Below, piece by piece: positions 15,581 to 55,552 of a DNA stretch of 64,000 bases (position 1 is the stretch's first letter; each line of letters opens with the position of its first letter). Where the stretch lies: assembly GCA_973895155.1 (NCBI GenBank), contig OZ316896.1, positions 8,887,539 through 8,951,538 on the forward strand. Reading direction: 5' to 3'. The notes beneath the pieces are model-generated. The model saw only the letters and a list, made by a program, of their open reading frames with translations, had not been told where the DNA came from and did not search any database. This stretch comes from Marsupella aquatica. Its lineage: Eukaryota; Plantae; Marchantiophyta. The translations under genes were made by a program, and so were the position numbers.

Positions 15581-15869
15581 TTCTAGGGAAATTGGCCAAT
15601 ATCCCAACATGTAAAACAGTTCTTGCATGGGCATGGATATAGTTTATGGATAGCTACTGTAGGTATGCAACAAGCTTGAAGTTGGTCACTTGGTTGGGAA
15701 AGGGTGATTGGCTGAACTTTTAGTTGAGTAGTTGTGATGGGGGTCCAAAAACGGCGCCAAGATATATTGTCAAAATAAGCGGGATGGTTATTCATACAAT
15801 ATGAATACAGGAAAGCCCCCAATGAAAACATGACATGTATTAGAATATGGTATATACCGGTTGCCTGTA

Positions 15870-19451: not shown

Positions 19452-19765
19452 GGGTATGGCACGCATGACAGTAAACAGGAAACAGGTTTACTGGTACCAG
19501 CAAAAAGTTACTATTACCAGGAAAAATAACCATGTTAAAATATTTTCTAAAAAGTCACATTTTCCAAAAAAATTTAAATTGCAACGTATTTTGGCTAGCT
19601 TTGGGCGCTAGCATTACCAGCGCCGGGCGCTGGCAAAAAAAATGAAAAAATTGAAGAAAAAAAAAGATTTCAAAAAAAAATTCAAAAAAAATTACCACTC
19701 GTTTTCCTGTTACCAGTTTCTGTTTCCTGTTACTGTTTCCTGTTTCCTGTCGTTTGTAAATACCC
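19452..19765. mobile_element. Mutator-like MITE (314 bp), 9-bp TSD
   Basis: Imperfect TIRs gggtat...gacagtaaacaggaaacag / ctgtttcctgtttcctgtc...ataccc. TSD atgactctc vs ttgactccc (7/9). G-rich termini. Confidence 0.7.
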
Positions 19766-20411
19766 TTGACTCCCTGAGTAATAGCACAACCACATCAGGA
19801 ATTTAGGATCCATCCCTTTCAACAGTGTGTCATGATGATTTCATTGCAATGTTTAAACATCATTGTTTTCTGCACTGTCTGTTTCATCATTGGTTCATTG
19901 TTGAATGGACTGACGTTGATTGGTCTAAAATTGTGATGACTTGTATTAGTGTTGTATGCGTGTTGAAACATTGATGGTTTACTAATTGCAGTTTAGACGA
20001 TGAGAAACATTATAGAAGCATTGCTGAAAATATGGACAATGATTTAGTAATTTTTCAGTATCACATATTCAATGAATTCCCTCAGTTTTTCATTGTCTAT
20101 TCATTGCATATTACCCTTAGATATGTTGTGCAATGTTTTCACATTGATACATTATGAACATTTCAGTATTGAACAATTCCATTTTCATTATAACATATCC
20201 ATGGGTGTATTGTTTGAATAATATAGATTCATTGATGACACTTCATGGTTGCGCTGTTGATTAATTGAGGTTTAGTTGTTGGGGTTAGACTTGTATATTT
20301 GTTGTTGTCTTTTTAACTTTTCATTGTGTTTTCATTGCATATTACCCTCTCATATGTGACACAATGTTTATATACTGATACAATATTTATTGTGGAATGG
20401 TCCACTCTTTC

Positions 20412-20690
20412 CAAGGTTGAATCATTGCAAATGCATTGTTTAAAGGTCATCTTTTCATCAGTGAAATTAGGTTGAATCATTGCAAATGCATTGTTTAAAG
20501 GTCATCTTTTCATCAGTGAAATTTCAAGGTTTCATTGTTGGTTAGTGGATGATAGGTTGCTAGGTACTTTATTAGTGAAATTTCAAGGTTTCATTGTTGG
20601 TAAATGGATGATAGGTTGCTAGGTACCTCATTAGTAAAATTTCAAGGTTTCATTGTTGGTTAGTGGATGATAGGTTGCTAGGTACAACCA
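20412..20690. repeat. Short tandem duplications (about 54 bp x2, then about 59 bp x3) downstream of the transposase
   Basis: 'ggttgaatcattgcaaatgcattgtttaaaggtcatcttttcatcagtgaaatt' twice; 'aatttcaaggtttcattgttgg..ggatgataggttgctaggtac' three times. Confidence 0.9.
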
Positions 20691-20914
20691 CATCCTTGGA
20701 AAGTGGTATTGATTGAAATAGATCTAGGACGTGCCTCAACACTCTTGGCTGAGATGTTTTGAGGGATTTAGTTGTTGTAAACTTGAAAGACTTAGATACT
20801 CTCGAGATAAAACTAAACAATTCAAATTTGAGACATACTTACAATGACATATTTTTAATGGCTTCAAAGTTCGTAGACAATTTTATTCCAACTTTATCTT
20901 GCTCATCAATTGCT

Positions 20915-23900
20915 TCAGAACTTAAACCTATTCAAGAGGAATTCTCCTACCTCGTGCTCATCCACTCCATAATGAGGCACAAGATGAACTACACTTAGAA
21001 TGTTGGCTACTTCTACCACATCATATGCTGCTAGTCTCCTCCTGCTAGAGGTCCCTGAGTGGCCTCCTATCTCAGTCCTATCCACCACTAGCTTTAGGAT
21101 CAAGCACCCAGTAGTCCTCTCTGGTCTTGTTTGACTATTATACCACCTCACTAAAGCCATGTCCCGGGTGGCTTTATCTCCACTGCTAGTGGTCACTGGA
21201 CAAGTGAACAGGAGTCGTAGTTGGGCATACCATGTCAAGGGCTCATCCCCAACTTTCTCCATCTGTATGGCAACATCACTGAAGTAAGGGGCACCATGAA
21301 AACTCGGGGTGGCCCTGCCTGTCATGGGCCAATCCGCAAATCTATCACCCACTCCTGCTGCAATGGCCACCCCTGTCTTTACTCCGAGAGTCTGATGCAA
21401 TCAATTGAAACCCTCATCAGATATGGAGGTGTCTAGTAAAGATGACCATGCAGCTAAGCAAGTTCTTAAACCTTATTCACAACTACTTACAAGTCACAAG
21501 TTGCTCACCTCAATGGTCTGCAAATCATTAACGACACAATAACCTTGCAAAGATGTCTTCAAATGCAACGATATCTCTGGTTGTGTAGTCAAGACCTCTT
21601 TACCGCTAAGAGGGATATCAGTTATCTCCCTCTGCAACCAGTCCATATGGAAACGTAGTCTTGTGCCCATGAGAACATTAGACCCTGTTGCCACAGCCTG
21701 CCATTCACATTACATCAGTTATAAGTCGACGAATAGAATGCATTGCATTACAGATATCAAACCAATTATATTTTGAATGGATAATTCACCGCCTAAGCAC
21801 CTTACCTTGTCTAACGCAGTGAATCGATCATCTGCCTTATCAACCTCTGAAATGGAGGTAGCATTTTTTCGGCTAAGAGCTAGTAGCCTTCGGTGGTGGT
21901 TAGTCATTTGCTTGGCGAATTCCTTTTTGTTGCTGGCTCTATATGGCACTTTCATCAACAAAATGTGCAAATGTTCATACAGATTAGTGGAATACTCCAC
22001 TGGAATCCCTGACGGCCGAATAGAATCAGAGAGGTGAGCCATTGCGTGGACCTTTACAGTATCAAATTCTGACTTTTGATACTTTCCTAACACCACTATC
22101 AACTTTCTCACCATCCTGCACAACATCATGTGCAAATTATTAATAATTCTGTCTTATTCATAACAACTTGGCAGCCTAATATAATCAGTAAGCAATAATA
22201 GAATGAACTATCCAGTAAAAAGCAAGAAGTACTTACACTACCATCAGCCGATCCATTTCTGCCAGAGTCTCCTCAGTGTGCACAGCTTTCCGGAAAGCCA
22301 AAGTATACCAATCCCACATAGAGATCACAACTTGCAACACAGGGGTCGGGTAAACTCCAAGCATCACTGGAATTAGAACCTGAAACACACACCTATGTTC
22401 AAATGCCTGGAAAGTGGCGTTAGAAGTAAAATATCCAGTCCTTCCCTTGCACGAGGGAAGTCTGAACTCTGGATACCGGTGATGCTCTGACACCCAAGCC
22501 AACCTCCGGTCCAATACCTGTAATGCTTTTCGTTTGAATGTGACAGCCGGCACTTCAACTGCCATGACTTTCAAGATCCCAATTAGGGTTTTAAACAAAC
22601 CTAAATCAAATTGGTGCATCTTGTCAGGATGCACACATCTATACGGGTTTCCTAGAATCGTATCCCCACCAAGGAAACCCCAAAGTGCACACTGCCAACA
22701 CACACAGACACACTTGCATAAGTATTTACGTTCACTTTGATAATTCAAAAGAATAAATGATAAATTTGCAAAATAGAACTAGTGATGATGCAAATTCAGA
22801 TATCATAAACTTTGTACCTGAATGGGATGGACAGAGTTACTCCTGGACAATTCATCCATCACAGCCACAGTTCCTGATACTTCATTCATCTCCTCATATA
22901 GAGCACTCATGTTTTCTTGAGTTCGATATTCAAGCCTTGCTGTAACTGTGCTCAATTGACCTCGAGGACAGTGGCATGTGCTACATGGAAAACTGCATCT
23001 ATTGGAGTCAAAAGTGCACGTTACTTTGCAGCTCTCTGGATGGTCACCGATGTAGCCATATAGGAGTGGGAATACCCATTTCTGTGAACCTGATGGATCC
23101 TCCAACGGCAAGCCCCTGTCACATCACATGCCAATGAACAATCAATGTCTTGGCACAAATGTAATATAAAATGGATCTAAAAAATATATCAGCAACCACA
23201 TAGATAGTAATTTGGGTTATAGGAAATAACAGAGAAATTAGGTTAAAGAAATAATGACTTACGTAAAACTCAATGCCTTGAGTGGTGCCAACAAGATGCT
23301 CAAACACTTGTGCAAAAGTGAGCACTTGAGCCTAGTTGGATTTCTAGAGTTCAACAATTCCTGATCACATGGTCCATAAGTGGGCAAAATGGCTAACAAG
23401 GCATGGCCAAGCTCCTCCCGCCGTCCAGCACATTCAATGTTGGCTAAGGACATCATCAATGGATATCCAGACTCTCTGGTTATTAGACAGGGAAGTTTGA
23501 TCTGAATACAAGATGATTGCGGCAATGACTCCACCTGGACACCTCTGTTGTACGAGAGTCTACAGCAAACACCAACAAACTAAGTGTCCAACCTCATCCA
23601 GGAACAAAAGAAAAGCTCAATTGAATAGATAAGTACAGTATGTTCCCTTACATGCATCTGTCTCCACCAGTGCCCTGTTTCCGGAGTACTGTAGTGGTCT
23701 GTTGCCTCAGCTTCAGCGGGAAGCAGTTTGAAGTCTTTCTTGTTGTTGGAATTTGAAAACAAAGTAGACAACACTTCCACTGGATCTTGAAAATGCAGCA
23801 CCAACTCGTGCACATGCTGGTCTTTCTCTCTAACCACCGCTTGCTTCCATTCAATACCATGATCACTTGCCATCTTTTCTTCATATGCGAGAAGGTCACT

Positions 23901-24335
23901 TACATTTTTCACAGAAACATCTTCTCTATTAAAATTTGGGTGAAAAAGCGTACCCAAAAACCTTATGGTGTCCTTGATAGACATCCCTAGAGTATTTCTA
24001 CATTGCCTTAAAAAGGCCACTAGGTGAAATGTTGAATCAAACCTGTCCTTTGGATCACTGGCTCTACAGAAATTGCTTACAGGAGTACATAATATTTCCT
24101 CAATGTTAGCTGTGGATGGATGATCTTGAGGATCATCAATCATGTGGATCAATTCGTCAGCAGTTTGTTGCACTTCTAGTGGAGAAGAAGATTCCCCAAC
24201 ATAGAATGGGGGAAATGGCTCAACCTCCTTCTGGGCTAATGCTAATTTGCATGATCTATTGGTACTCTTGTGAGAAGCGAGCCCACCATTGGTTTTAAAT
24301 CCTTTGCAGCCACAGATGTCACAGTCGTATGTCAT
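20915..24335 (-). pseudogene. Plavaka-type DDE transposase (~900 aa, 7 exons), frameshifted
   Basis: Predicted exons 24335-23652, 23559-23263, 23115-22818, 22691-22237, 22115-21806, 21697-21509, 21391-20915, all GT-AG. Motifs: N-terminal zinc finger CDIC..FKTNGGLASH, YSTPETGHWW, IILYSDQT, YPLMMSLANI, LLHKCLSILLAPL, GYIGDHPE..CSTC, PDKMHQFDLG, KVHAMAH..STNLYEHLH..KVPYRASNKK, and C-terminal ALVRWY. Frameshift near 23470 (NNQRV/SGYPL). Confidence 0.85.
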
Positions 24336-27099
24336 TTTTAGGACTCAAGTTTGGCAGCATTGAGATTTACCTACTTTAGACTGAGTGGCTACGGTAGTAA
24401 GGTCCAGGAATCTACGATTGATTACACACATATTCTGGACTCGCAAACGACATTGATGACCGGTAGTTCAAGATTACCGGTAGTAGATCAAAGGCAAGTC
24501 TTCAAGCCATCCATACAGCTCAATATAGAAGACTTTGAAGCTTGATGAAATCCACATCGTTGTGTCTCAGGCTGTGTTGCGCCCCATCAATAATCTGTGT
24601 GCCTACAGTGCCATTCATTACCACCGTCAGACAACAACAAAACGACATCACATCTTCTCACCTAAACTGCGTCCCCCCCGAGGACTACACTTCTCCGCTA
24701 AGGTACAGCATACCAAAGACAACTAATGCAACCATAGATTTTGCCAAGGCAAAACCTCTCCACAAGCTGGCATTGATAGACTGAGCCAAATGTAGGGCTC
24801 TAAACTATGCTTCACGCAATCAGCAGAGAGAACAATTGACACAAGCAATCCACAATTGAGTGAAAAGAGGAGTCCTCAAACGCTAATGAGTCATCAGTCT
24901 CCAAGCTTGTGACAGGCTAGCTGCCGGGCCTCTTCCTCACTTGAAGTAGAGGTAATCCTAAATCTGAAAAGTCAAGCGTATGAGAGACCGACTTTGACTC
25001 CGAGCACTTCGAATGTAAGAATCACTGAGCTCTAATAAACTTCGAATGTAGGAATCACTGAGCTCTAATAACATCTCGGACCATCATCGAGTTCACCATT
25101 ATCGTTTCCTCGTATTTCTGCAGAGCAAGTCACCAACTTGCCTAAATTGCTCAAACCATTTTCCCAATTTACGATCGACCGCGATCTATTTGTTATTGTT
25201 AATATCAACCACAGAGGTTGAAGGAACTTCATCTGGGATAAGTCTTTCCGAAGCTTCCACGTTTCTCAATTGAAATGTTCAATTAGTTCCTTGATATGTT
25301 GATACTGTAAATTCACAAATTTGATGGGGCAAGCTTCGGGGATCAATACTTGATCTGGACTTTGCTGTTTAGATGGCACACAAGAATTGTTACAATTGCT
25401 CTGTATAACGTTAGGGTCTCAATATCGTCAGTAAGTGTATGACAAACAAATCTGCGTCTGTTCTGTCTAAAATATTGAACAGGGAATTGTTGCACTGGAT
25501 GAAAATGCAACGTTGACCATTGCCTTCAAAGAAATAAAACTAAGAAGAACTTAAACCTCGGCTGAAAAGTGATCTGGTTACTGAAAACCAGCGAGTCCAG
25601 GTCTTCAATACCATCATCGAGTTGTAAATGGAGTGTTCTATATTCTGTTTCTGGAGATCAAAAGATGAAGTCCAGCTGTATTAGATTTCCTTAATCGAAT
25701 TCAGGACTTGATCCACTTTGAAGAATCTCAGCTAATGACAAGCTGCTCATTTTAACTGCACAAGCAGGCCAGGTGCAATTAAATGCACTTAAATCCTACA
25801 GAATACACTCGTAAACTGATCCAAAGGTCAGGGCTAAGCGTAGGCTTTCTCTGACCCATTCGCAGCCTTTTACTATATCCATCCACAAACGACGGACCCA
25901 TACAATTTTCCTTATTGCAGCTGGTATATCTTTCAACTAATAAAGATGATTAGAGAACCGATAGATCGCCTGTCTATTCCTCGAATCAATAAAGGTCAGG
26001 AAAGAGGAACTGGGAGTACAGACCGGAAATCTGTTGAGGGATCAACTCCTTGCCAGCCCATCTCTTTCCATTCCTCACAGACAAGGCCAGGAAGCTCACA
26101 ATTTCTAAAGGCGGCTCGCCAAAGGGCTTTCAAGGCTTCCTGCATTACAAATAACACAATGTAAATCCAAAGAAATCGTCAAAAGATAAAGGGCCAACAG
26201 GCACGTAAATCGATCTGCGACGATGCAGTGGGAGCTTATAAAAATTTGGGAGTATATGTTTGCAGAATTTAACTATATGACCAATTGGGTGATGCTTGCC
26301 TAATGGTCAGGACGAGTCCCATCCAAGGGGACAGAGAGCCGTTCTTGAAGCCGTTGCAATGTGATCTCACCTCAGCGGGTGTATTCTCATTCACTTCAGA
26401 ATATTAGATAATACAAGCCAAAAATCTCATCAGGAACCTACAAACGAGTGTAAAATCAACTTGTAATCGCTTCTACACAAATGTAGAGATTCCACTGTGA
26501 ACAGCAGAAACTGGCAAAAGTACCCGAATGAATGGAAAGCAGCAAGTAGGCAGGAAAGGTCTGTGTGTGGAGGTCTGCGGAAGGCAAAATCGACGCCCGA
26601 CCGCCAGCAAAAGTGTGACGTATTTCGAGTTCTAGAAAAGAGCCACATCGATTCAAGTCCCTCCACGACATATTCCATGGACTCGCTTCCTCTTGGGAAG
26701 TCTAATCCGTACAGTGGCATTCGAAGACTACAAAAAGAGGAGAGAAGTAGCTTGCTCTGATCCTTACTCTCAAGCAAGGAAAATAAAAAATGCTACAATA
26801 CTGTGAGTGAATTGTAAGATTATGACGGACATTTTATTCGGGGAATAACGGTCAGTTTGAATTAGGATCGTACCAGTATCACTCATATTCCGTGAACGCA
26901 GCAAAGGAAGCAACACTTGCTAAGTCGAGCGAAGGAGAAACAAAAGAATCAATATAAGAATTCATGTCAGCGCACCAGATGCGATCATTCACCAACTCGC
27001 AAAGGCCAGTATGTGCTGATACCATTTTGCTTCGAAAAAAAGACAGGGAAAGGAGGAGGATGGATACATTGTCCAGAAAAGGATTGAATCCTTACACAC

Positions 27100-27321
27100 C
27101 TTATGCCACGCCCAGAAGAAAATTGCACCGCCGGATGAGGAAGAGGAGGGCCTGAGAGACTGGGAAGCTGCAAGGTAATGAGGGCCGACGGGACAGAGCG
27201 CATTGCGAGGCGCCGCACAAGATCGAAGGTGGGACAGAAGCGCTCCGGAGGAAGCATCCCATAGCGTGACTCCTGCGTCAACGTTGGAGCACACCACCAC
27301 TGCTTCCCTCACGGTCGCCAC
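27100..27321 (-). pseudogene. RID3: Captured first exon of a RID3/IPI3/WDR18-like WD40 gene
   Basis: VVVCSNVDAGVTLWDASSG..LRSCAAPRNALCPVGPHYLAASQS..GAIFFWAWHK|gt resembles the plant RID3 N-terminus. Start codon reads GTG. No downstream WD40 exons found. Confidence 0.72.
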
Positions 27322-27825
27322 CTTGCCCCATCCACCCGCGGGTGGACGCTCCCTCCCGGTTTCTCCTCCTACCCGCCTTCAAAACCTTCAAAAAATTCTC
27401 GTCATGCTCATCATTATTGCCCTATCCGAGGTCCTTCCCTCCACATTCTTTCCTTCAAGCATAATCATCCTCTCCTCTCCTCTCCTCTCCTCTCCTCGAG
27501 GAAGCGCAAAACACACAATGAAATGTGAATCTCAACTGCACACAGCGTCCGTTTAATCCGCCCGTTCCACTGCTGAATGGGCTGGGCAGGGCTGCCTGCT
27601 TTCTGCTCGAGCCTCCTTCTGCTCCGATTTCCGCAGCGCCGCCAATCCACAGAATGATGAGAATCAAAGAATGGCGAACAGGGTATTCTCCATTGCTCCA
27701 CTACATCACTACGTTACAGCAGCAGCAGCTCGCTCCCTCTATAGTCGAGGTATTCTATGTCTACAGTGGGCCTCATCATTCTGTGGCGATCGCTCTTCCT
27801 TCATTCCTTCCTTCCTTCTTCTTCA

Positions 27826-28166
27826 CTTTCTTGTCTTTCCTTTTGCGATTTTGCCTCGCGCTCTTTTTGTCGTGCATTGGTTTTGGAGTGGCAGACATCC
27901 TACACTCGCCCCTCTTTAAGAGCACACGACAGAAGTGCGAAGCCTGGCTAATTGCAAAGCGCCCCTTTCTTCCCCTGTTTGTTTCGTGACTATTTTACAG
28001 TTTCTTGTCTTTTGTTGTGCGATTTTGCCTCGCGTTCTTTTTGACAGGCATTGGTTTTGGACGGGCAGACTTCCTACACCCTTCTTTAAGTGCACACTAT
28101 AGAAGTGCGTAGCCTGCTTAATTGCAAAGGGCCCCTTTCTTCCCTGTTTTTTCTGACTATTTTACA
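27826..28166. repeat. About 170-bp diverged tandem duplication inside the cargo
   Basis: Two copies of 'tttcttgtct..gcgattttgcctcgcg..cattggttttgga..ggcagac..agaagtgcg..taattgcaaag..cccctttcttccc..gactattttaca'. Confidence 0.85.
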
Positions 28167-29644
28167 TTGTTCTCCATCTACGCTTCTTCAGTATCAAAAA
28201 GCTACTACTCCTCATCAAATACGGTACCACGATCTCCCTTCTTGGTTCCACCCATTTTAAATATAGCTTAAAAGGTAGTATATTTGGGTAGATTTCTAGT
28301 GTCTCCTCCTTGACACAAGCCAATATATGCTTGCTTCTACAGTGCCGTTGGAAAGTTGTGAAACCCAAATTACCATTTTTTCCAAGTTCAATTCTCCATA
28401 TTTGTTTCTGACCATAAGATCTACTTAATTAGCTTGAAGGAGATCCATCACATTCTGCTAGTAGGCCTCAGACTTGGTAGGACACTAGCCAATCAGACCA
28501 AAGACTGACAGCAAAAGTGAATTTGGGCAAAAATTCCCACGAAAGGAAAGAACACCCTTGTTTATCAAGTTTTGCCAAAAACTTTTCAATCCAAGAATAT
28601 TATCATAAGCTTGGATGTGATCTCCATACAAACTTTAAAGCTCACCTGAGATTTGAACTAGAGAGTGAGTTCAATTGTCATTCTAAACTAAACTAGAACT
28701 CATAAGATCCAAACTCTCTAGTTAAAAATTGTTTTTGTAAGTATAAACCCCATACATTTGAGCATGCAAGCTTAGAAATTCAAATTTGAGCATTGGGCCA
28801 ACTCTCAACTAATTTTAGCATTTGATACATGCTCCACTAATTTTAGCCAGGAACCCACATTTGATTAATTTTAGCAGTGGACCTATGCTTGGCACGTGTG
28901 AGACGCAAACCCCCATGCGTGTGAGCATCTGCAAGGTTGTCTTTGGGGCCCTTACTCCCTAATGTGATCAGAGTTTCTTAGTGGGGATACTCATCTTGCT
29001 TACTTTACCTCACACATAATGTTGTACGTCCCCAATCTTGAATGTTTTCAAATTGGTTCAAACCCTTGCAATTTATTTTTCTTCATAGCCATTACTAAGA
29101 CATGAAGAATTTATACTAAGTTCTTCACTTTATTTTTTATTTTTTTGATCAAGGCAAGAGTACACCCGAATCATTCCAAATGAAAAAACCTGTGCCACTA
29201 TCTCTCCTCGCTCCCCATGAATTCATATTTGTTTTACTGTTAGAAAGGTTAATTGTCTCCCCGTCCCTCGATCATTAGGGTAACCGAACTAGATAGACAT
29301 CGAAACGCTTTTCGCCTCCTTCAGAGCAAAGCGAAGGCGAATGCGAAGGACTGAAGGAGAGAGTGGACATAGCTGAGGTCGTGGAGTGCGAGCACCACCG
29401 TTAGCGGGAGGCAAGCACCAGGGCGCTCGCCAAGGACGGCAGATTCACGGTGTGGCACCTCCGTCGACATTCGGGAAAGTTCCCTTCCAGCTCGGGAGAG
29501 TGAGGGTTTTATCGAGTGGGAGGGAGAGTGAGGGTTTTTCGTCTTGTTTTGGCTCATTTCGTTTCGGAAAGGGAGGTGGAACAGAAAGGGGAGGATAAGT
29601 TTCGTGGCGAATGGATTCGACGGCGTTGTGAGTCTGCTGCAACC

Positions 29645-30276
29645 ATGGCAGAGCATTTGGCCTCCATTTTTGGCACGGAGAAGGATCGAGTGAATTGCCC
29701 GTTTTACTTCAAGATTGGAGTGTGTCGGCGTGGAGATAGATGCTCCCGACTGCACAACCGTCCCACTGCGAGTCAGACGTTGCTTCTGGCAAATATGTAC
29801 CCGTCCCCCGACGCAGAATTTCATTGCGGAGTTGATCAGGATGGAAATATCCAGCAGTCTGACTGGACGTCCCGGCAGTTGGTCAGGGGCCCAATTTCCA
29901 CAATGGGACGTAGAGCACCCCGGGAGGCAGCTCTTCGCTGTGTGGTAGTTTGTCTAGACAGGATGCAACTCGTGTCCGTGCTGCTTTTTTTAAAGCCTGG
30001 AACAATCTTTAAATACTTGAATAGAAGAGAAGGGACCCGGGGTTAAATATTTACAGGACTGATTCTTTTGGAGGCTCGACCTTAAAAATTATTCACTCAT
30101 TCCCATTATCTCGAGGTGGAGGTTCATTGTTCCGCTTCGTCTGTTTTGGGGTACGCTTTTTGTCCTCAGGTATTTTGCATTGAGCCGCTCTTCATGATGT
30201 TTGTACATCTGGTTTCTCTCTCTCTATGTGGAGGACTTTTACGAGGACATTTTTGAAGAACTCAGCAAGTACGGTT
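29645..30276 (+). pseudogene. U2AF35: Captured 5' fragment of U2AF small subunit (U2AF35), interrupted and truncated
   Basis: [52 protein letters not shown] (29645-~29865), about 370 bp of unrelated DNA, then EDFYEDIFEELSKYG (30230-30275), then truncation. Confidence 0.9.
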
Positions 30277-30535
30277 GAAGAACTCAGCAAGAGCACATCA
30301 GGTTCTTATGTTCAAAACATCTTTGTCTGCCGTTACAGGTAGATTATCATCTGGAGACACCTGATCAAGGTGTCGGTGAAGGAGGCAGAGCTGATGACGA
30401 TGGCTGGCTGGAAGGTTATCCCAGAAACAAGTGGATAGCCAACAGTTATCTCCTATAGGCTGCTTGGTACGGATGCTTGTAGATAATTATATCCCATTGA
30501 TTGTGAGTGGAACTAATTAGAAACAGTTTCTCTAA

Positions 30536-32571
30536 GATCTATTCAATTTCTGTAGATCGGAAGTTTTCTCTAAAGACTGTTCTCATGCTCGCGAACCAGC
30601 TGGTATGTATCATAGGTGACAGTGGCATTCTTTATAATCCAGTTTTTCAATTCTGTTTCAAGAAATTAGTTGGAGAACTTCAAAGGTTGTTATGTCCGCG
30701 ACCTCGGATTGGCAATGGTTTCAAGGATCGCATCGAATGTTTATCGTTTTGTTCTCCATTGTAGATCAAACAGAGTGGAGTATGTGCATTCAAAGAGCTT
30801 TCTTCACCGAGACATCAAGCCGGACAATTTTCTTATGGGCCTGGGCAGGCGAGCAAATCAGGTATTCCTGGATTCCTCGGCCGTTATCCCCATTGCGTGA
30901 GCAACTATATGCTATCGCTCATTGTAAATTTCTTCGATGATCTAGACAACGGTGATGACATACATTCCTCCTGTAATTTCCTGAAGCTGTACATCATTGA
31001 CTTTGGTCTTGCCAAGAAGTATCGAGATCCATCAACTCACCAACACATTCCCTACAGGTGAGGCCTGCCGTTTCCTTTTCTAGACTTCGTTCTGTTCAGA
31101 TTCGTAGGGGTCAGAACTGCTTGTAGATGGTATGTTCATGGTATTACCGCACATTGCAGAGTTCATCTGGAGGATTGCCAGTCATAACGTGTCAATAACG
31201 AATTGAAGTTTCTCGTCGTTATTGAATTATATCATTGTCTAAACGCCTTATATTGCAGGGAAAACAAGAACCTGACTGGCACCGCAAGATACGCCAGCAT
31301 AAACACACATCTCGGCATCGGTGGGTATTCACGGTCATTTTGTTCTAGAGTCTTCTTTTCTCCTTCGATCGTATCTGAAACAGAGGCGTTCAGTTGTATA
31401 TTTCTTGATGTCTCGGGCTACCATCTTAACCATGGATTCGGTGTGTGGTATGTCCTCCTGTACTTTCTTAGAGGAAGGTGAGCCTCTCGGAGTGTTCTTG
31501 TCCTTCAACTGTGCCTTGTCATTTTTGTCTAAGTAGATTTCTCTCTGGAGTTCTTTAGTAAATCAACTATTGTCACATGTGAATTTCTTGTTCAGTCCTA
31601 TCCACGGTCGCAGTTACATTTTTTTGGAGTGGGCTTCGCCAGACGATGCTCATTGAGTACAGTCGCCGTGCCATTTTGTGGGCACCATGCGCTCTAGTAC
31701 TACCACTGTGACAACTGTGTGGACAAAATGGACGTCCTTCTGAATGTCCTAAGTTCTGACTAGTATCATTGCAGTTTGGTTGAATCCATTGCCTTTTCCG
31801 AAAAGTTTGGTTCCAACTGGTGGAATCTCAAATTTCCTACCTGTGATGGATTACGTTTCAATGATGTGATTTTTGAGCGCCTAGGTATGATCGTTTCCTT
31901 TTGGAGTTGGCAGGTTTCCAGTTTGATTATGTTTTCGACTGGACAATATTAAAGTATCAGCAATCCCAAATCGCTGGCGCTCTTCCACGATCTGTTGTAA
32001 GTATTCTCATACATGGATTGGTAGTCTGGTGCCAAGAGTCATGGTGTGTTTGTTGGGGACCTCCTTTAAGGTCATTTTACCGTATGGCTTGTTTTCAATG
32101 CAATAACATGACAGTGATTCTTTTGCAGCCTGGACTCGGAGGTACAAGCAGCGGGGCAACTGCAGTTGCAGACAGGGCTGCAGGTAGTCTAGTGAGAATG
32201 GTTCAATTTTACTATCTTGCTTCTTGGGCTCCTGGCGCTGGTTGCCATATATTCAAACTAAATGGGATTGGAGATTGATGAGCGGGAGATGCTTATTCTT
32301 CTTTGCTGTTTCTGGGGTCATGTTATGGTGTTTTTCTACAGGATCGAGGCTATGTTGGCAGTACTAAGGTTTGCTACTGACTTATGGTCCTCTGATATGT
32401 GGGGGAATAGGAGGGCAGGAAGGTCGCGAGGCACAAAAAAATGCTGATGCTGTTGAGGGTGCCCGAAGGAGGCTTACTACCAGCGCTATTGGAACAGGTG
32501 GAATGACTGCTTTGGGAGAGCCACTAAAGCATAAGAGTCCTGGGCCGGATGAGGTGACAGCAAAGGATACA
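30536..32571 (+). pseudogene. CK1: Captured intron-containing casein kinase I (CKL) fragment lacking the N-lobe and several internal exons
   Basis: Exon pieces [125 protein letters not shown]. Frameshifts near 30556 and 30769. Introns retained. Confidence 0.92.
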
Positions 32572-34746
32572 GTACGTTCTCATCTCTGTTTCAAGTAGTC
32601 TCATTATCGCCACGTCGTTTTTGTTTTGCAGTGTGAGACTGGACCTTGGAGGTATCTTGGCTTTTGACACTATATGTAGGTGTGCTATTTTTTCAATGTG
32701 AATTTCGAGAGTGGCTCCAGCTGAGAAATTTAAATAGTATAGTTTACTCCTGCATCCTGCAGTCGCTACGTATTTATCTTTGTATGGTTTGCAATGGAGA
32801 TAACTTACATGACGGAGTGATTAGACCCCTCTTCTTTCACTCTGCCTGCAGTCGCAAAATCTGGAATTGTTGATAGTCTCTTGTAAATTTCAAGATTCAC
32901 TATGGTTAATAATTTTATCCATGGTTATATTTTTTGAATTGGCATAAGGCGGGGCTACGTAAATATGTTGATGAACTTGAGACTTGTATTATTTTTTGTC
33001 TGATTAAGTTTTTTTTAATTAAAGGTTTACTTGGAGGATCGAGGTTGGACACAATCATGCTGCTCGGACATCATTCCTTTGATGATCCTGCTGTTGTTTC
33101 TTTTTGTGGGGGAGAAAGGGAAGAAACTCCGAGAAAGGGGAGGAACTCCGCGAGGGGGAGACGAACTAGGGGGAGGGAGAGGTAGGGAAGAGCAAGACTG
33201 GTAGATGAGATAGAGGAATGCGCTGATGCTCTCAATTCCCGTATTCCTTGAGGTCCGTTCTCTTCTCAGCGTCCATCGCGATTCATCTTGCATGAAGACC
33301 ACGACTCAGGTACCAGGTACGTATTTTCTCTACCCGTTGTCTAAAGTTGTAATCAACGGGAGGTTTTTGCTCCCGACGTTTCTTCATCGATATTGTACTA
33401 GCATTGTAATATAATTCTGTGCAGTACATCAGTCACATGTTCGGATCTGCTCTAGCCAACATCAAGGTAGTTGAAGGTACTAGTGCTTGTCCTTTCAAGT
33501 TTATTGGCGAACATTTGCTTGAGAACAACAGAAAATAGAGACGACCGGCCAGAGCAGAGGCCAGGGCGTGGGCCAAACGATCGGTGGTGAATATCGTGGG
33601 ATACATGCTCTGTATCTGAGCTCCAGATTTTAGTGAAGTTGTCACCTAAAACTCACTTTCAGGTTTGATTTCTGAGCCATTGATTTGATTTAAGTAGCTT
33701 TATTCACGCCTCACTCCTGCCACACCTTCAGAGCACGTTTCGATGTCGAAGCCAAATGTTGTGATTCAGTTGGCTTTACTCGGGCCTCTTGCAACCTTTG
33801 GTCACCTTCAGAGGTTCAAGTTCTTTGCCATTTTTTGTTTATTACCTTTATTCGTGCCTCGTGTGGCCTTTCCAGATCGCCGAGGAAGGATCGACGTCTT
33901 GAGCGAAGGACAGAACGCGTTTGTGCAGGAGCGGCAACTCTCGTTGTGCTGTCCCTTCTCTCACTCAGTCTTTGGGAGCGCATTCATAGAGCGTAGTAGC
34001 AGAGCGGAGGCGTAGGCGTCGTCTGCTGCGTCTGGTCATCTATTGTCGCCAAATTTTTAGGTGTTCGTAAAGAAGACTGAGAGCTCTCCCCGCTTCTCTA
34101 GGAGGGCCTGCTGATGCTCCACCGTACTGTGCAGACTTTGAAGTAGGGAGTCTACAGTCAGGCAGTTCATTTTGATACGGAAGGCCAACCAGAGTTGCAG
34201 TGCAGATATCTGTTGCTGCGTCTGATCATCTTTTGTTGCAGAATTATCAGGTGCATGTTATAATACGTCGTGCATTCATTCGTTCGTTCATCTCATGTCA
34301 TCACGCCGAACGTCGTCTCCATGTCATCAATGGGGAAAGAGAAGTAGGAAGTGCAAGACTGAATCCAATGATTTCTTGAATATTTTTGAAATTTTTTGCT
34401 GTGTCAAAGAGTCTTTTATGTCTTACTGTTCGGGTACGATTGATGGATGTGTAAGTGTGGGAGTGAATCGTTGGGTTGTCGTCATTGATGTGAGAATTTG
34501 GCTGATGCCGAAAATATGGCGCTCGATGAACTTGATCGCCAGGGAGAGAGGCGGGTGGGCTGTTAGGAAGTTCTCAGGTCGACGCATTTTTTTAAGCCCC
34601 CGCAACAAAATCTAAACTATGTCTCTACTTTCGTTCGCGACTACGATTGGTTTACTCATTTTGTCAAAGCTCAGCACAGATATCTTACCATTACAACTCT
34701 GTGTCTGTATGCGGGATTTTTGAGCATTCAGTGACGAGACGAGACG

Positions 34747-34796
34747 AGAACAGAACAGAACAGAACAGAACAGAACAGAACAGAACAGAACAGAAG
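34747..34796. repeat. (AGAAC)n microsatellite with adjacent GAGAC/GAGGC pentamer repeats
   Basis: Direct inspection. Confidence 0.95.
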
Positions 34797-35570
34797 AAGA
34801 CGAGACCAGACTACACGAGACGACGAGGCGAGGCGAGGCGAAGGGAGGCAAAGGAAAGGAAAAGGAAAGCAGCGTGTATTAGAATTACGCGTTTGGCGAG
34901 GTATGTTGCGATCTTTTATTCTACTTCGTGCGGGTGGAGGAGGATCAGTTGTTGTTTGCCTTGCGTCCGTCAAAGAGAAGAGTGAGTGGAAGAAAGGCGG
35001 AGGAGAGAAGAGAAGAGAAGAGTTTCAAACTAGTATTATGGTCGTCGTCCTCGAGCTTCTCTATTCCTCCAGAGAATCTGCTTCCTTGCTCGCTGGCTGG
35101 CCTGCAACTTTCTTCCACCAACTGCTGCTGTGCTGCATCTGCGTCCAACCTCTACCGTGCTGCATCCAGCTCCAGCTCCAGCTCCAGGCCCTGGTCCCAG
35201 AGACCCAGACCCAGTCCCAGTCCCTGCCATTGCGCAGAAGCTTGCAGATTTCTGTACCGACCAACCAATGGCCGATTTGCATCGAGCGAGACTCTGCAGG
35301 TCTGCTGAGCGGGAGTTGGAATTGGGAGTGTCGATTGTGGAAGTGGAGAGGAGTGGCGGCTGACCACGAAGGAGCAGGCAATGAGGCAAGGCAAGAGGAG
35401 ACAAGGGAGCTGCGAGCTACAGTCGGTGGAGGAAGAGAAGAGAATAGTTTTGGACAAGTGTTTAGACCTTTCTGTGATTGTGTGGTTGTTTTATCCTATG
35501 TTAGTGTGACTGTAGTTTGTAGCCAACTTTTGGACGAATATTAATCTACCTGCATTTTTTACTTCTACAG

Positions 35571-37921
35571 ATGACTTGTAGAAGACGGTTGACAGCCAAT
35601 GGGCCCGCTGCAGCTTATGACATTGTGATGTCATCACAGAGAAAACCAACTCAGGGTAAAGGGAGAGCTAACACAGCATCCGCTGAAGGAATTTTTTCAT
35701 CTCACGACAATGACTGGTCCTTTCGCACTAGGCATGGTGCCGCCAGGAAAAAATTGAACATGGGTACATCGGAATCCCCCATCAGAAATGAAACAACTCC
35801 AGAAGAAGATGGAGGCAGTGGAAGGCACTCACCTTACATGAGGTACAAGGTGTTTTTTTAAAATGTATTGCTATTGAGATGATCTAGATTTATATGATTA
35901 TATAACCTTCTCTTTCTTGGGATTGTGTAGATTTCAAACACAGGCACCCAGGCCCAGGTCTACCACTGGTAATGAAACAGATGTTACAACAACCAGGAGA
36001 AGGAAGTATGTTGATCTGACTGATGACGAAAATATCAGGTACATTGTACTCTTGATTTAATTTATTAATTTTTGCTTTAGGTTTGTGAACTGTATTGGAA
36101 TTGACGATTCAATAATTTGCCATTCGCATTTTGCTAAAATGCAGAGAGGAAGAGGAAACTCCTAGACCAGGAAGGCCGGAAGTGCAGAGAAGAGACTCTG
36201 TGAACAATGAAGGACCTATGAGGTAACCATGTAAGTTATACAAGTCTCTTTTATGTATAAGGTTATGTAATATTTAGTATTGAAAACTAATGGTTTTTTT
36301 TTAATCTTTTGCAGAGAGGAAACTCCTAGACCAGGAAGGTCAGAAGTACACAGAAGAGACTCTGTGAACAGTGAAAGACCTATCAGGTACATATGAAAGT
36401 TATACAATTCTATTTTAACTAATAGATCATGTAAAGTTTAGTATTGTGAACTAATGATTTTTTTCCTCTTTTGCAGAGAGGAAATTCCTAGACCAGGAAG
36501 GTCAGAAGTACACAGAAGAGACTCTATGAACAGTGAAGGACCTATCAGGTAAATATGAAAGTGATACAAGTTTCTTTTACCTAACAGATTATGTCAAGTT
36601 TACTATTATAAACTAATGTGGTTGTTTAATCTTTGTAGAGACCAGACAGTGGCTTGGGATAGGAGCAGAAATCCAAGTAGAGTTCCTGATAGCGATCCAA
36701 GCAGACAACAGCCTGATGATATGGCTAATCAGAGCCCTTGCAGGTAAAGATCATTATGTGAACATCTATTTTTATTTCACAAGGCTTGGTTTTCAGACTT
36801 GATGCTTTTGGTAAAACAATGAAGATACTAATAGTTGTTTTCATGGTGTGCAGACAGAGAACAGATACTGCAGATGCCTTTGAGAGATTGCACTACAAGG
36901 CAATGATAGAACAAGTAAAAGAATATAAGAGCACTGTGGCCAACCTACAGAGGATCCAAACCGGAGTTTTGCATAAGATTGTGGAGCTGCCTCGACACTG
37001 TAGATGGGAATGTGTCAGTAAAGTATTGACTGATGTGGTTTCGTCATTTCTACTTGGCTCTGATGCAGAGTGTACACTGTATCCATCTGAACATCAATTG
37101 ATTCCCAGAATTTTGCAAGCTTTTGGTGTTGGCATGAATGACAGAGATAAAGTAGAACAATTTTTTACACAATGGGGGAAAGGAGGTCAAGAAAGTATCA
37201 TGGGGAAAGTTTTTGACAATATTCGGGATAGGCGAGGGGCTATCTTGAGAGTAAGTTCTCTTTCCTTCATCATCCAGTCCTTTTCAGTCATTGGATTGAT
37301 GAAGTGTTATCTGCAGTGTTTGTTTTATAATAACTTGTATTGTTTATTGATTATTAACTATGGCTGTTATGTTTTCAATGTTTTTGCAGGTACTTAGGGA
37401 AGAGTTCTATGCTCAGCTTGGAACACCTAAGCCCAGAGATGGATCAGACATAGCTGTAACAGACTGGAAAGACAGATTAGCATCATTGAGAAGGAATAGA
37501 GAGTGGAGGAGTGACAGTGAAGGAGATAGATATGATCCATGGGGTACCTTGACCATTCATCATTCTATTTCCCGTGTGCTGAAGGGAATTAGATATGACA
37601 AAGAATGTCCTATATCAATCAGTGTTCATCAGGCTGGATTCTTTTTTCATAATGTGAGTATCATTATTTACTCCTTTACAAGTTTGGTGTTCAGTTTCTT
37701 TATTACAGATTTAAGGTTTAGTACATCTCTAATTAAGGTTTTTCTTGCACATATAATGGATTCTAATCATTCATTTGTAATTACAGCTTGAGTTGGCTAT
37801 GGAGGGCAGAGTGATGGAGGCATCATGAATGCATCTCCATCACAGGTGCATGAGTGAGATGGAGGAAAAAGTTAAAGGATACAGAAAGGACATGAGTAGG
37901 ATTCGTATTGTGATGGAATGA
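35571..37921 (+). pseudogene. Second (accessory, TnpA-position) gene of the Plavaka element; ~500 codons, 9 exons, unknown function, premature stop in the last exon
   Basis: Phase-consistent GT-AG exons 35571-35842, 35931-36038, 36145-36222, 36315-36386, 36477-36548, 36639-36743, 36854-37250, 37390-37653, 37787-37921. Disordered N-half, helical C-half (..FERLHYKAMIEQVKEYK..VFDNIRDRRGAILRVLREEFY..). In-frame TGA at 37826 with the frame continuing to 37921. Confidence 0.7.
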
Positions 37922-37997
37922 GATTTAGGATAGTGAGTCTTGTCCTAATTGAAGATAGGAAGATATGTGACTATTGAATAATTGCAGACTATTATAG

Positions 37998-38093
37998 TGG
38001 CTATATGAAGAGACGGAATGTAGGTAGAGGGATGAGTCGACCCTCTGGCTATATGAAGAGACGGAATGTAGGTAGAGGGATGAGTTGACCCTC
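37998..38093. repeat. 49-bp tandem duplication 3' of the accessory gene
   Basis: 'tggctatatgaagagacggaatgtaggtagagggatgagt(c/t)gaccctct' twice. Confidence 0.9.
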
Positions 38094-40649
38094 TTGTATC
38101 ATGTACTCTTTATTGTCTTTGTCTTTAAAATGAAATGTTTTGAAGTTTTTTCATAGTTGCAAATACTTGACATATTTCTCTTTGTAAAGGTCTTTCGAAA
38201 GTGATTCCTATGTCAATTTTAGTACCCCTATCCTAAATGTGATGTGGAATGTATAGGCAACAACATTGAAATAATGTTGTATCTTAGACTAGGAAACTAT
38301 ATTGAAATGACAAATTAATTCCATTCTATTAGTTCAACATGGAATATAAGAATATGTATTGGTGCAAAGATAAATGAAAGACGTTGAAACATTGATGTAA
38401 AATGTAAAGTTGTACCCTCAAATAAACTATCCATAAACCTTAGAGATTATGCAAAGAAGATAAGGAAAAACATTAATATATGCTTGTCCAAAATATAATG
38501 TAGATAGTAAGTACCAATGACCCATGACATATTAATGAAAATAAAGGTATCTATCATTGTCTTATCAACATTAGATACCTATCATTATATAGAAGAAGAA
38601 GAGATGCTGGTTTACTGATATATTATCAATGAAATTTAATCTGATCCTCGATGATTGGACGTTGAAACTACATTGTTATAATATTGAGACAACATTGACC
38701 AAATATTGATCTATCAATGAAAGTCTATTAATTGAAGAATGGTTTTTATTACCAAATGTATTGAAAATACATTGTAACATTGTCCATACAATATTGACCA
38801 AACATTGATCTAACAATGAAAATCTAATGATACAACAATGTATTTCATTGTAGAATCATGCAAGAATAAACGTGGAATAAGTTGACAATGAATCATCACG
38901 ATGAGCCCAATGATTTGTTAATGTAATATTTTGTGAAAATTACAAAGCAATGAATCATTGTGGCACCCACAAATATCCAGTAATGCTAGGTCAACATGAT
39001 AACATTTATGATTTTACAGTGTATTCTTATCGCACCCTTCATGGGTTTATAAATCATTGTTTAATTGCAAAATAATAGGAACCCTAATTTCCTGATGCAA
39101 GTTCTCCCCGACACACAACTTCCAAGCCCAATCTTCATTGCAGAGAGCTCCTCCCTGCTGCTCAGTGTACGTGAGATCACACAACTGAAATCCCTCTGCC
39201 TCTACCAGGGTATTGCTCTATATACTCTCACATTGAGCCCAAATGGGTGGATGCTATGCTGCTGGAGCCCCATCCCAGCCCTAACAGAGCCGCCACTATC
39301 TCTAACTATTGAACCGTAACTCGCAGCTTTATTTCTATCTCGAATTGGCTATGTACTTCGGATTTGGCCATCCTCAATAGTTTTTGCGAGCTTGCACCTC
39401 CTCTCCCAATTTCTCCATTCAACCATTTGCTGCGTGGATAGCGGCTTGAGCTCCCCTTTCCAACAAGGTCAATTATAGCCGATTTGGTCCAATCCACAAA
39501 ACGTTATGCCCCCGCAACCGAGAGGGGTTACTCACCACAATGCTAACCCGAGTTACATAGCTAACCCGAGTTTGGCTAACCTAGCTATCCTATCTAACCC
39601 AAGTAGAGCTAACCCGTGGTCTCAGGTTAGGCCGCTACCCGCTATCTGCTAACCTAGACTAAGTTGAGCTCGAACCCAAGAGTATCTATGCTAACCCAAG
39701 CCCGAGTTTAGTCTAACCCGGGCTCAATCTAACCCGAACCCAGGTTAAGCCTAAGCTGAAGCCGTGCTGACCTGGGCTAAGCCGTGGCCGAGCTTAGGTT
39801 AACCCAAAACCGAAGCGAATCCGCTAATTCCGGCCATAAGTTAACTCGTCACACTAATCAGACCGTATCTTTCTTAATACACCTCCATTTCCCTAATGTT
39901 TTATATCTATTTTACTCCCCTTGACCAGATCTTTCCAATCCTCTTTACAGATCTGGATTTGATGAAGTATTGAAAAAGATATGGTCACCGACCACCCGCA
40001 ACATAACTTTTTATTTCCCTAACTTAACATTCTAAGACTAGACCATGAACCACTAACCTAACACATGGAATGAAGATGCACACAAAAGACATTAGGATTG
40101 CATGATGAAAACAATCACCATACCACAAGCCTTTTCTTCAATTGTGGAGACTTGCTTCAATTGTGGAGACTTGCTTACCACCTATGCCCCTACATGTGCA
40201 TCATTCCTAGAGAGTCCCCATGCTCCATTGTGCCCCAACACGGTAGTATGGTAGGGGAGGTGAATCCTGTTATCCTCCAGCTCCTTATTTGTGGCCTTGA
40301 CAATGATTGTCGCTGTTATGTCTGCCTGGGCTGTGTGCTCTTCAAGCTAAATTGTCCTAGTCCTGCTCTAAACACCATGATTGCCCTTATTCTTGCCATC
40401 TTGCCGATTGTTATGTAGTCTCACAGTTACTTACTACGTACAACATACCAATTCCATCATATTATTGAATAAGGACCATGTCATCGGCGTCACAAGAAGA
40501 GATGTCATTTAGTAAAATATAGTTACCATTGTGATGTTTGTCAATAATATATCAGTGTTTTTTATTTTTAATTGTTTGCAAGTTTGAAAAAACCAATCGA
40601 CAGAAATAGACATAGTTAGAACCCTTTTGGCTCCACATTGTAATACTAA

Positions 40650-55400: not shown

Positions 55401-55552
55401 AGCTACGGTCGATCGACAACTCACTACTGGGTCGAAGGACGTTGATTGCGTGGATTTGTATGTTCGTGGATATTGAAGGTGCATGAGGGCAGATATTGGG
55501 GGAGCGGGGAAACTGCTTAAATACTGGGACGATCGATCGGTTTCTGGCCACA

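What the first reader, a model, noticed from the sequence alone, without database searches (positions are those of the whole stretch)
19791..39099. A 19.3-kb two-gene, cargo-carrying Plavaka-type transposon ('Pack-Plavaka') in a land plant
Seen: matching imperfect TIRs 19.3 kb apart, a spliced Plavaka-type DDE transposase at one end, a divergent 9-exon gene at the other, and ~10 kb of host gene fragments between them, all apparently inserted into an LTR. Known: Plavaka transposases were described mainly from fungi and are related to CACTA/EnSpm. Plant gene capture is known for Pack-MULEs, Pack-CACTAs and Helitrons, and those carriers are usually non-autonomous. Inference: this family keeps both of its own genes in a head-to-head layout and loads cargo into the spacer between them. 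I do not recognise this architecture as described in plants.
Basis: partly seen in the sequence, partly recalled or inferred. Interest (0 to 1): 0.88.

Follow-up and report, generated by a model that had tools for sequence, protein, structure and literature searches.

The report
Gene-capturing Plavaka transposon in land plant
A 19.3-kb cut-and-paste jumping gene of the Plavaka type, in what is likely a moss or liverwort, sits as one insertion and carries its transposase gene, a second conserved gene of unknown fold and broken pieces of four ordinary plant genes between them, which extends a gene-capturing habit known from related plant transposons to this little-studied group.

Summary
Real, and one element. 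Public contigs show the empty target and stop exactly at both ends. Ends, duplication and catalytic motifs match PlavakaB (PMC12730594). The 7-exon transposase hits Pfam Plavaka, has one frameshift in this copy, and a 41%-identical liverwort homologue folds like RAG1/Transib. The divergent 9-exon gene is intact (469 aa), conserved in Calypogeia (70%) and matches no known family. The 11.2-kb spacer holds intron-containing, broken pieces of ELMO, WD40 (weak), U2AF35 and casein kinase 1 genes, but much of it is unassigned; contig depth indicates the cargo was amplified with the element. A related family also has a choline-kinase exon upstream of its transposase. Not shown: parental genes, expression, or that the two-gene layout is general (0 of 22 related loci held gene 2). 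Plavaka in moss, giant multi-gene Plavakas in red algae and cargo in complete CACTAs are in print, and this scan noted cargo-carrying Plavakas in fungi before. Verdict: new variant of a known kind; the unknown accessory gene is the best lead.

The parts
19791..19792 (+). left copy of the 2-bp target site duplication (CA)
   Evidence: sequence; empty target holds CA once
19793..19807 (+). left terminal inverted repeat, CATCAGGAATTTAGG
   Evidence: X3 contig starts at 19793, X5 at 19792
19808..20700 (+). left subterminal region, AT-rich, with repeated (T)TCATTG motifs and 55- and 59-bp tandem repeats
20915..24335 (-). Plavaka DDE transposase gene, 7 exons (24335-23652, 23559-23263, 23115-22818, 22691-22237, 22115-21806, 21697-21509, 21391-20915), about 903 aa; one frameshift near 23472 in this copy
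   Evidence: 41% over 833 aa to Calypogeia fissa CAM6089392.1, whose model matches RAG1/Transib
24336..35570 (.). 11.2-kb spacer between the two start codons: cargo plus unassigned DNA (probably including both genes' 5' leaders; inferred)
   Evidence: CpG observed/expected 0.55-0.90 against 0.22-0.36 in the element's own genes and ends
26024..26437 (-). ELMO/CED-12-domain gene piece: two exons with the intron between, the first with stop codons
   Evidence: Pfam PF04727 E 6.5e-11; translation
27100..27321 (-). first exon of a WD40-repeat gene with its splice donor (likeness to plant RID3/IPI3 is recalled, not tested)
   Evidence: weak: best PDB hits all WD40 proteins, E 0.011; no Pfam hit
29645..30277 (+). 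5' piece of a U2AF35 (U2AF small subunit) gene: start codon and first zinc finger, an interruption after 29863, then a short later exon piece
   Evidence: Pfam zf-CCCH E 2.2e-8; PDB U2AF23 E 1.6e-22
30556..32573 (+). casein kinase 1 gene piece from mid-kinase domain to the tail, introns kept, N-terminus and internal exons missing, frameshift near 30768
   Evidence: Pfam Pkinase E 3e-6; PDB plant CK1-like E 1.1e-15; translation
35571..37828 (+). gene 2: 9 exons, intact 469-aa frame; N-terminal half R/S/E/P-rich with a 162-bp exon+intron unit in three tandem copies; C-terminal ~220 aa conserved, predicted mostly helical, no known family
   Evidence: homologues 65-83%, 70% over 190 aa to Calypogeia CAM6090573.1; no match
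38190..39082 (-). right subterminal region with the same (T)TCATTG motif
39083..39097 (-). right terminal inverted repeat
   Evidence: contigs of X2, X3, X4 stop at 39097
39098..39099 (+). right copy of the target site duplication (CA)

Best explanation
This is one 19,305-bp PlavakaB-type DNA transposon, inserted in a high-copy repeat with a 2-bp duplication, that holds a transposase gene and a divergent second gene and likely collected broken, intron-containing host gene pieces one after another in the spacer between them and carried them along as it multiplied. Shown: ends, duplication, empty target, both gene models, four cargo pieces, shared subterminal motif. Inferred: the transposase (RAG1/Transib-like fold, modelled on a liverwort homologue) binds the short ends and TCATTG-rich subterminal regions and cuts and pastes the whole unit; capture happened at the DNA level (introns kept), most likely by copying from a wrong template during repair of an excision gap or by fusion of neighbouring copies; it piles up in the spacer because that is the only part free of coding and end constraints; the cargo is decaying and makes no working protein; gene 2 is the element's own helper, most likely a nucleic-acid-binding partner in transposition or against silencing, by analogy with the second genes of CACTA and Mutator elements; this copy, with its frameshift, would move only with enzyme from an intact sister copy.
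For: Empty target and exact contig breaks at both ends. Termini, 2-bp duplication and C(2)C / H(4)H motifs match PlavakaB. Pfam Plavaka on exons 1-3, two above the curated cut-off; homologue model pLDDT 76 matches RAG1 at E 6e-10 and Transib at 8e-4. Cargo keeps introns and shows stops, a frameshift and missing exons; its CpG content is host-like while both own genes are CpG-poor. In run X3, depth at ten listed cargo positions is 104-352 and on transposase contigs 165-253, against about 24-25 for a variant contig taken as one locus; in X1 cargo contigs (180-207) equal the left-end and transposase contigs (180, 189). Listed differences in coding exons keep the frame: 2 of 2 substitutions synonymous, two 3-base insertions, one loss of a 72-base exon. 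An X1 contig over 23148-23528 has two more bases than the window, the number that would keep the frame open, although their place is not shown. In a related family, copy L007 has 2.9 kb with a choline-kinase exon between blocks that are contiguous in sister copy L001.
Against: No whole genome was held, so no second full copy was read end to end and no parental gene was found. Contig depth is not a copy number by the tool's own warning, and parental genes can add to it; in X2 the cargo is only about 1-3.5 times the single-locus figure. In X3 and X5 the gene-2 arm is much shallower than the transposase arm and cargo (X5 0-3 against about 20), and the right end is deeper than the interior in X2 (193 against 40-50), so many copies differ from this layout. 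Gene 2 was not found near the transposase in 22 related loci, and its Calypogeia homologues lie on other contigs than the listed Calypogeia transposases. Its role rests on analogy only; the model is poor (pLDDT 45). The WD40 call is weak.
Confidence: 0.75

Rival explanations
1. The 19.3 kb is a hybrid of two neighbouring Plavaka copies from different subfamilies: the left arm (transposase plus cargo) and the right arm (gene 2) were joined with the DNA between them and then moved as one unit, so the two-gene layout is a recombinant and not the family's basic plan.
For: Left arm and cargo are several times deeper than the gene-2 arm in X3 and X5; two right-end subfamilies in X3 and X4 (9 differences in 386 bases, 32 in 216); terminal repeats match over 15 bases only; such hybrid formation is the proposed route for Pack-CACTA (PMC6379663, abstract; PMC8903248, passages).
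Against: Both ends share one subterminal motif in mirror orientation; in X1 and X2 both genes have similar depth; the cargo is a patchwork of four truncated genes, not one contiguous chromosome stretch. This rival changes the history, not the fact of one mobile unit.
Confidence: 0.3
2. The cargo was not captured by the Plavaka element itself but arrived inside one or more nested elements (a Helitron, Pack-MULE or similar) that inserted into the spacer.
For: About 8 kb of the spacer is unassigned; X5 has a contig that leaves the U2AF35 piece at 29863 and goes on with other sequence, and X3/X5 show variants at 32975-33401, so the spacer has insertions and deletions of its own.
Against: No inverted or direct repeats bounding the cargo were found and no second transposase or helicase in 184 spacer frames scanned against Pfam; cargo depth follows the transposase arm, not a separate higher-copy family.
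Confidence: 0.12
3. The captured 5' ends of the WD40 and U2AF35 genes, which lie back to back in the middle, act as a borrowed two-way housekeeping promoter; transcripts run through the cargo exons into the transposase on one side and gene 2 on the other, keeping the element expressed in a methylated setting.
For: Both left pieces are on the transposase strand and both right pieces on the gene-2 strand, each arm starting with a first exon; the choline-kinase piece in L007 also faces its transposase; a splice acceptor lies directly before the gene-2 start codon; the spacer is CpG-rich. Splicing of captured exons is documented for Tgm-Express1 (PMC1947982, abstract).
Against: Five of five orientations has a chance of 1 in 32 and was noticed after the fact; no RNA was seen; 3-6 kb separates the captured starts from the own genes, and the element's own promoters may lie there.
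Confidence: 0.15
4. The middle is ordinary single-copy host DNA lying between two independent insertions.
For: The terminal repeat alone is not clearly beyond chance; the spacer has host-like CpG content.
Against: The left and right flanks are contiguous in other copies of the target repeat; the gene pieces are truncated and broken; the middle is multi-copy in X3.
Confidence: 0.02

Closest known systems
PlavakaB DNA transposons, CMCT clade (PMC12730594; passages and two supplement look-ups seen)
   Same: [quoted passage not shown]
   Different: described there from fungi; the extra gene is a TET/JBP dioxygenase; no host gene fragments in the passages seen
Giant Plavaka elements of red algae with accessory genes PAG1-3 (bioRxiv 10.1101/2025.02.11.637652; passages seen, supplements closed)
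   Same: 17-19 kb length, transposase plus own accessory genes, repeats inside the element
   Different: their accessory genes carry methylase, SET, ParB and oxygenase domains; gene 2 here shows none; the extra length here is decayed host cargo. PAG1 has no known domain and could not be compared with gene 2
Plavaka candidates of green algae and moss (PMC13519894; passages seen, supplement not readable)
   Same: Plavaka transposases in streptophytes, moss included
   Different: the passages give transposase phylogeny only, no element structure, ends, second gene or cargo
Complete CACTA elements with captured gene fragments in Chenopodium, Jozin (PMC8978399; passages seen)
   Same: sister lineage; gene fragments inside elements that keep a transposase, placed upstream of the transposase frame
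   Different: CACTA ends, Transposase_21 family, small fragments (one is 80 bp); flowering plants
Pack-CACTA / Pack-TYPE elements and soybean Tgm-Express1 (PMC6379663 and PMC1947982 abstracts; PMC8903248 and PMC13317346 passages)
   Same: several unrelated, intron-containing host gene pieces between terminal repeats
   Different: defined as non-autonomous, without a transposase gene; studied in flowering plants

Membership tests
PlavakaB | termini 5'-CATCA..TGATG-3' | tested here: met
   against PMC12730594
PlavakaB | 2- or 3-bp target site duplication | tested here: met
   CA on both sides, once in the empty target
Plavaka | transposase matches PF18759 | tested here: met
   exons 1-3 at E 1.4e-4, 6.1e-7, 3.9e-9, the last two above the cut-off; homologue P0004 E 7e-37
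CMCT clade | D, D, E with C(2)C and H(3-4)H between the second D and E | tested here: met
   motifs at about D248, D352, C372-C375, H448-H453, E626 of the read-through model; assignment of the acidic residues is by motif order
CMCT clade | RAG1/Transib-like fold | tested here: met
   tested on the 41%-identical Calypogeia homologue, not on the window protein
PlavakaB | groups with fungal PlavakaB in a transposase tree | not testable with these tools
   no labelled fungal or red-algal sequence was in hand; the 27-row tree puts the window in a 97/98 clade with Calypogeia and metagenome loci, beside Closterium and Chara
CACTA/EnSpm in the strict sense | CACTA/CACTG ends, 3-bp duplication, Transposase_21 domain (recalled; domain named in PMC8978399) | tested here: not met
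   ends CATCA, 2-bp duplication, no Transposase_21 hit on six exon frames
Pack-TYPE elements | host gene fragments between the terminal repeats | tested here: met
Pack-TYPE elements | no transposase gene (non-autonomous by definition, PMC8903248) | tested here: not met
   a full-length transposase gene with one frameshift is present; it works like a Pack element but is not one by that definition
Pack-TYPE elements | fuller parental genes elsewhere in the same genome | not testable with these tools
   no genome held
Red-algal Plavaka with PAG cassette / TET+ Plavaka | methylase, SET, ParB, oxygenase or TET/JBP accessory domain | tested here: not met
   no Pfam hit on gene-2 exon frames or on residues 1-190 of its homologue; no PDB or Atlas match
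LTR (target repeat) | TG..CA ends with primer-binding site, purine tract or 4-6-bp duplication | tested here: inconclusive
   TG..CA-like ends near 19441 and 39853, none of the other marks

The most novel reading that the evidence does not exclude
A bryophyte lineage of gene-shuffling Plavaka elements that stay autonomous: they borrow back-to-back housekeeping promoters and first exons to drive a transposase and a helper protein of a new fold, and the helper gene itself gets fused to host exons (as in the Calypogeia model joined to a USP7/UBP12 piece), making these elements a source of new chimeric genes and of a new anti-silencing or end-binding factor in early land plants.
Probability: 0.15. 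Interest if true: 0.8.

Novelty: new variant of a known kind. Interest (0 to 1): 0.52.

Why it matters
It gives a complete anatomy (ends, duplication, empty target, gene models) for a Plavaka element in a land plant, where the passages seen report only transposase matches. It shows that gene-fragment capture, studied mainly in flowering-plant Mutator, CACTA and Helitron elements, also occurs in this lineage and in an element that keeps its own genes. Such copies of U2AF35 or CK1 pieces can mislead gene annotation in bryophyte genomes. The conserved, intact second gene with no known fold is a concrete candidate for a new transposition or anti-silencing factor, since accessory genes of Plavakas elsewhere are chromatin enzymes.

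Tried and rejected
No whole genome was held, so pairing of other copies was tested only through contigs of public runs. No RNA holder was listed; this says nothing on expression. Protein searches for longer relatives of transposase exon 1 and gene-2 exon 7 found none. A metagenome scan for gene 2 found no locus (152 pattern matches, none confirmed). The transposase scan gave 80 loci; only the 22 best were analysed, the other 58 (34% identity or less at the first, mostly 25-32%, weak E-values) were left out as probably unrelated. No convincing terminal repeat pair with a duplication was found in 16 of those loci, so their ends are undefined; of 407 flanking frames listed, 149 upstream ones were scanned in Pfam and 3 hit (one choline kinase, two Bet v 1); the Bet v 1 pair in L015 cannot be placed inside or outside an element. 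Gene 2 function: Pfam, PDB profile, two Atlas searches and a fold search of a low-confidence model gave nothing usable. A sequence profile of the transposase found no solved structure; only the fold search did. No Rfam family in 19400-40000. The tied repeat pair 7479/51265 was judged chance. Low depth in some X1 bins is not used, since only about 57 in 100 of that run was read. The host species was not determined; 'bryophyte' rests on the best named homologues of both genes being from a liverwort. Not-in-print claim rests on searches, none of which listed a paper on gene capture by a land-plant Plavaka; subscription journals, Repbase entries, the Spirogyra Figure S3 and the Bostrychia supplements could not be seen and may bear on it.
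Full report
Observation. The window reads gcacaac CA | CATCAGGAATTTAGG at 19793 and CCTAATTTCCTGATG | CA agttctcc at 39097. The inverted repeat is short, 14 of 15 bases, and by itself weak: of 6,698 CATCA..TGATG pairs in the window it ranks joint first with one other pair. No whole genome was held, so I laid contigs of public runs on it (five runs listed, two coded organisms, three studies).

One insertion. Contigs that start at 39098 are preceded by the window's left flank with CA only once (3 contigs in X2, 2 in X3, 2 in X4). These are probably other copies of the high-copy target repeat, not the same locus, but they define the empty target and the duplication. Contigs stop at exactly 39097 in X2, X3 and X4, two X4 contigs go on into other flanks, and contigs start at 19793 in X3 and 19792 in X5, as expected for ends with many neighbours. 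Both 0.9-kb end regions share the motif TCATTG in mirror orientation, 14 and 7 times against 1.6 and 1.1 expected, 0 of 1000 simulations each. A 314-bp element with a 9-bp duplication sits 27 bases to the left. Whether the target is an LTR stayed open.

Transposase. Seven minus-strand exons with GT..AG introns of 92-147 bases give about 903 aa when read through one frameshift near 23472; as it stands the frame stops at codon 270. Exons 1-3 hit successive parts of Pfam Plavaka. The motifs SDQT, GDHPE, CSTC, HPDKMH and YEHLH fall in the order D, D, C(2)C, H(4)H, E that PMC12730594 gives for Plavaka and its relatives, and that paper defines PlavakaB by CATCA..TGATG ends and 2-3-bp duplications (passages). 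The best full-length relative is Calypogeia fissa CAM6089392.1, 41% over 833 aa; other named relatives are from Closterium and Chara. A model of that homologue (pLDDT 76) matches RAG1 at E 6e-10 and Transib at 8e-4. A tree of 27 rows places the window with Calypogeia and six metagenome loci (97/98), apart from Closterium and Chara; it has no root and no labelled fungal row. Three of the first introns fall at the same codons as in locus L003, whose partner L005 looks like its spliced form. An X1 contig over 23148-23528 is two bases longer than the window with no other difference, which fits intact sister copies, but the place of the two bases is not shown.

Second gene. Nine plus-strand exons give an open 469-aa frame. 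The first half is rich in R, S, E and P and includes three tandem 162-bp exon-plus-intron units. The second half has five relatives at 65-83%, among them Calypogeia CAM6122293.1 and CAM6090573.1; the latter matches over 190 aa at 70% and then continues, from the end of exon 8, into a USP7/UBP12 piece. CpG observed/expected is 0.22 in gene 2 and 0.34 in the transposase, against 0.80-0.84 in neighbouring host genes, the pattern of long-methylated element DNA. The few listed differences between copies keep both frames (2 of 2 substitutions synonymous, two 3-base insertions, one 72-base exon loss). No family, structure or fold was found. Gene 2 was absent from 22 of 22 related loci, many of them short or decayed.

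Cargo. Scanning 184 frames of the spacer and follow-up searches found an ELMO-domain piece (E 6.5e-11), a casein kinase 1 piece, the 5' end of U2AF35 and a weak WD40 first exon (E 0.011). The pieces keep introns and are broken by stops, a frameshift, an interruption and missing exons. Together they span about 3.3 kb of 11.2 kb; the rest is unassigned but has host-like CpG (0.55-0.90). In X3, depth at ten listed cargo positions is 104-352, like the transposase contigs (165-253), against 24-25 for a divergent variant contig taken as one locus; in X1 cargo contigs (180-207) equal the left end and transposase (180, 189) against 70-90; in X2 the cargo is 21-71 against about 20. The tool warns that such depth is no copy number, and parental genes could add one copy, but X3 cannot be read as single-copy. 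Against a fixed layout: the gene-2 arm is shallower in X3 (45-53 on its contigs) and nearly absent in X5, and X3 and X4 hold two right-end subfamilies. In a related family, L007 carries 2.9 kb with a choline-kinase exon between two blocks that are adjacent in the 92%-identical copy L001, just upstream of the transposase.

How it most likely works. The transposase recognises the short ends and subterminal repeats and moves the whole unit, leaving a 2-bp duplication (inferred from family knowledge and the fold). Host DNA entered at the DNA level, since introns are kept, probably by template switching during gap repair or by fusion of neighbouring copies as proposed for Pack-CACTA (PMC6379663, abstract); it collects in the spacer because ends and coding exons tolerate no insertion (inferred). 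The cargo is decaying. Gene 2 is most likely the element's helper (analogy only). Both left pieces face the transposase and both right pieces face gene 2, each arm beginning with a captured first exon, which raises the untested idea of borrowed promoters.

Comparison and novelty. Plavaka is reported in algae and moss (PMC13519894), giant Plavakas of 17-19 kb with accessory genes in red algae, and gene fragments in complete CACTA elements, upstream of the transposase frame, in Chenopodium. A 2026 review of plant gene capture has no occurrence of Plavaka, moss, bryophyte or liverwort. Seven literature searches listed no paper on a cargo-carrying land-plant Plavaka; unseen supplements and Repbase may hold one. 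This scan had already noted cargo-carrying Plavakas in fungi (unchecked notes) and nothing on this DNA. It is a PlavakaB member by ends, duplication and motifs, works like a Pack element, and is not one by the non-autonomous definition. Verdict: new variant of a known kind, interest 0.52.

Noticed in passing
window 19452-19765: 314-bp very high-copy miniature element with a 9-bp duplication (7 of 9 alike), Mutator-like by that length (recalled); many contigs break at both of its ends
   Followed up: partly
window 19441-19792 and 39100-39853: high-copy repeat of about 0.8 kb split by both the miniature element and the Plavaka; TG..CA-like ends, LTR status unproven
   Followed up: partly
P0093 (Calypogeia fissa CAM6090573.1): gene-2 domain joined at an exon end to a USP7/UBP12 C-terminal piece: a chimeric gene or an annotation read-through
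   Followed up: partly
L007 4707-7610: segment absent from sister copy L001, inside what looks like the transposase's leader intron, holding a choline/ethanolamine kinase exon
   Followed up: partly
L003 and L005: L005 is collinear with L003 minus seven gaps, most with GT..AG-type borders: it looks like a spliced transcript of a related Plavaka transposase, lacking the stretch for residues 532-586
   Followed up: partly
P0052, P0072 (Chara braunii): Plavaka transposase models fused to a core histone domain and to a Ulp1 protease domain
   Followed up: no
L015 5231-6191: two Bet v 1-family pieces about 2.5 kb upstream of a Plavaka transposase; inside or outside the element is unknown
   Followed up: no
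window 29213-29255: 43-base stretch shared with one contig in X2, X3 and X5 that has other flanks: perhaps the source of another small captured piece
   Followed up: no
window 7302-7519 and 62505-62729: two inverted copies of a ~220-bp repeat, 71% alike
   Followed up: no
window 8470-9410: array of 18-19-bp pyrimidine-rich units
   Followed up: no
window 13000-17200: decayed reading frames that look like a non-LTR retrotransposon (by eye; no Pfam hit)
   Followed up: no
window 43700-64000: ordinary host genes, including a ubiquitin-conjugating-family gene (44905-45249) and a cytochrome b5-domain gene (55487-55921)
   Followed up: no
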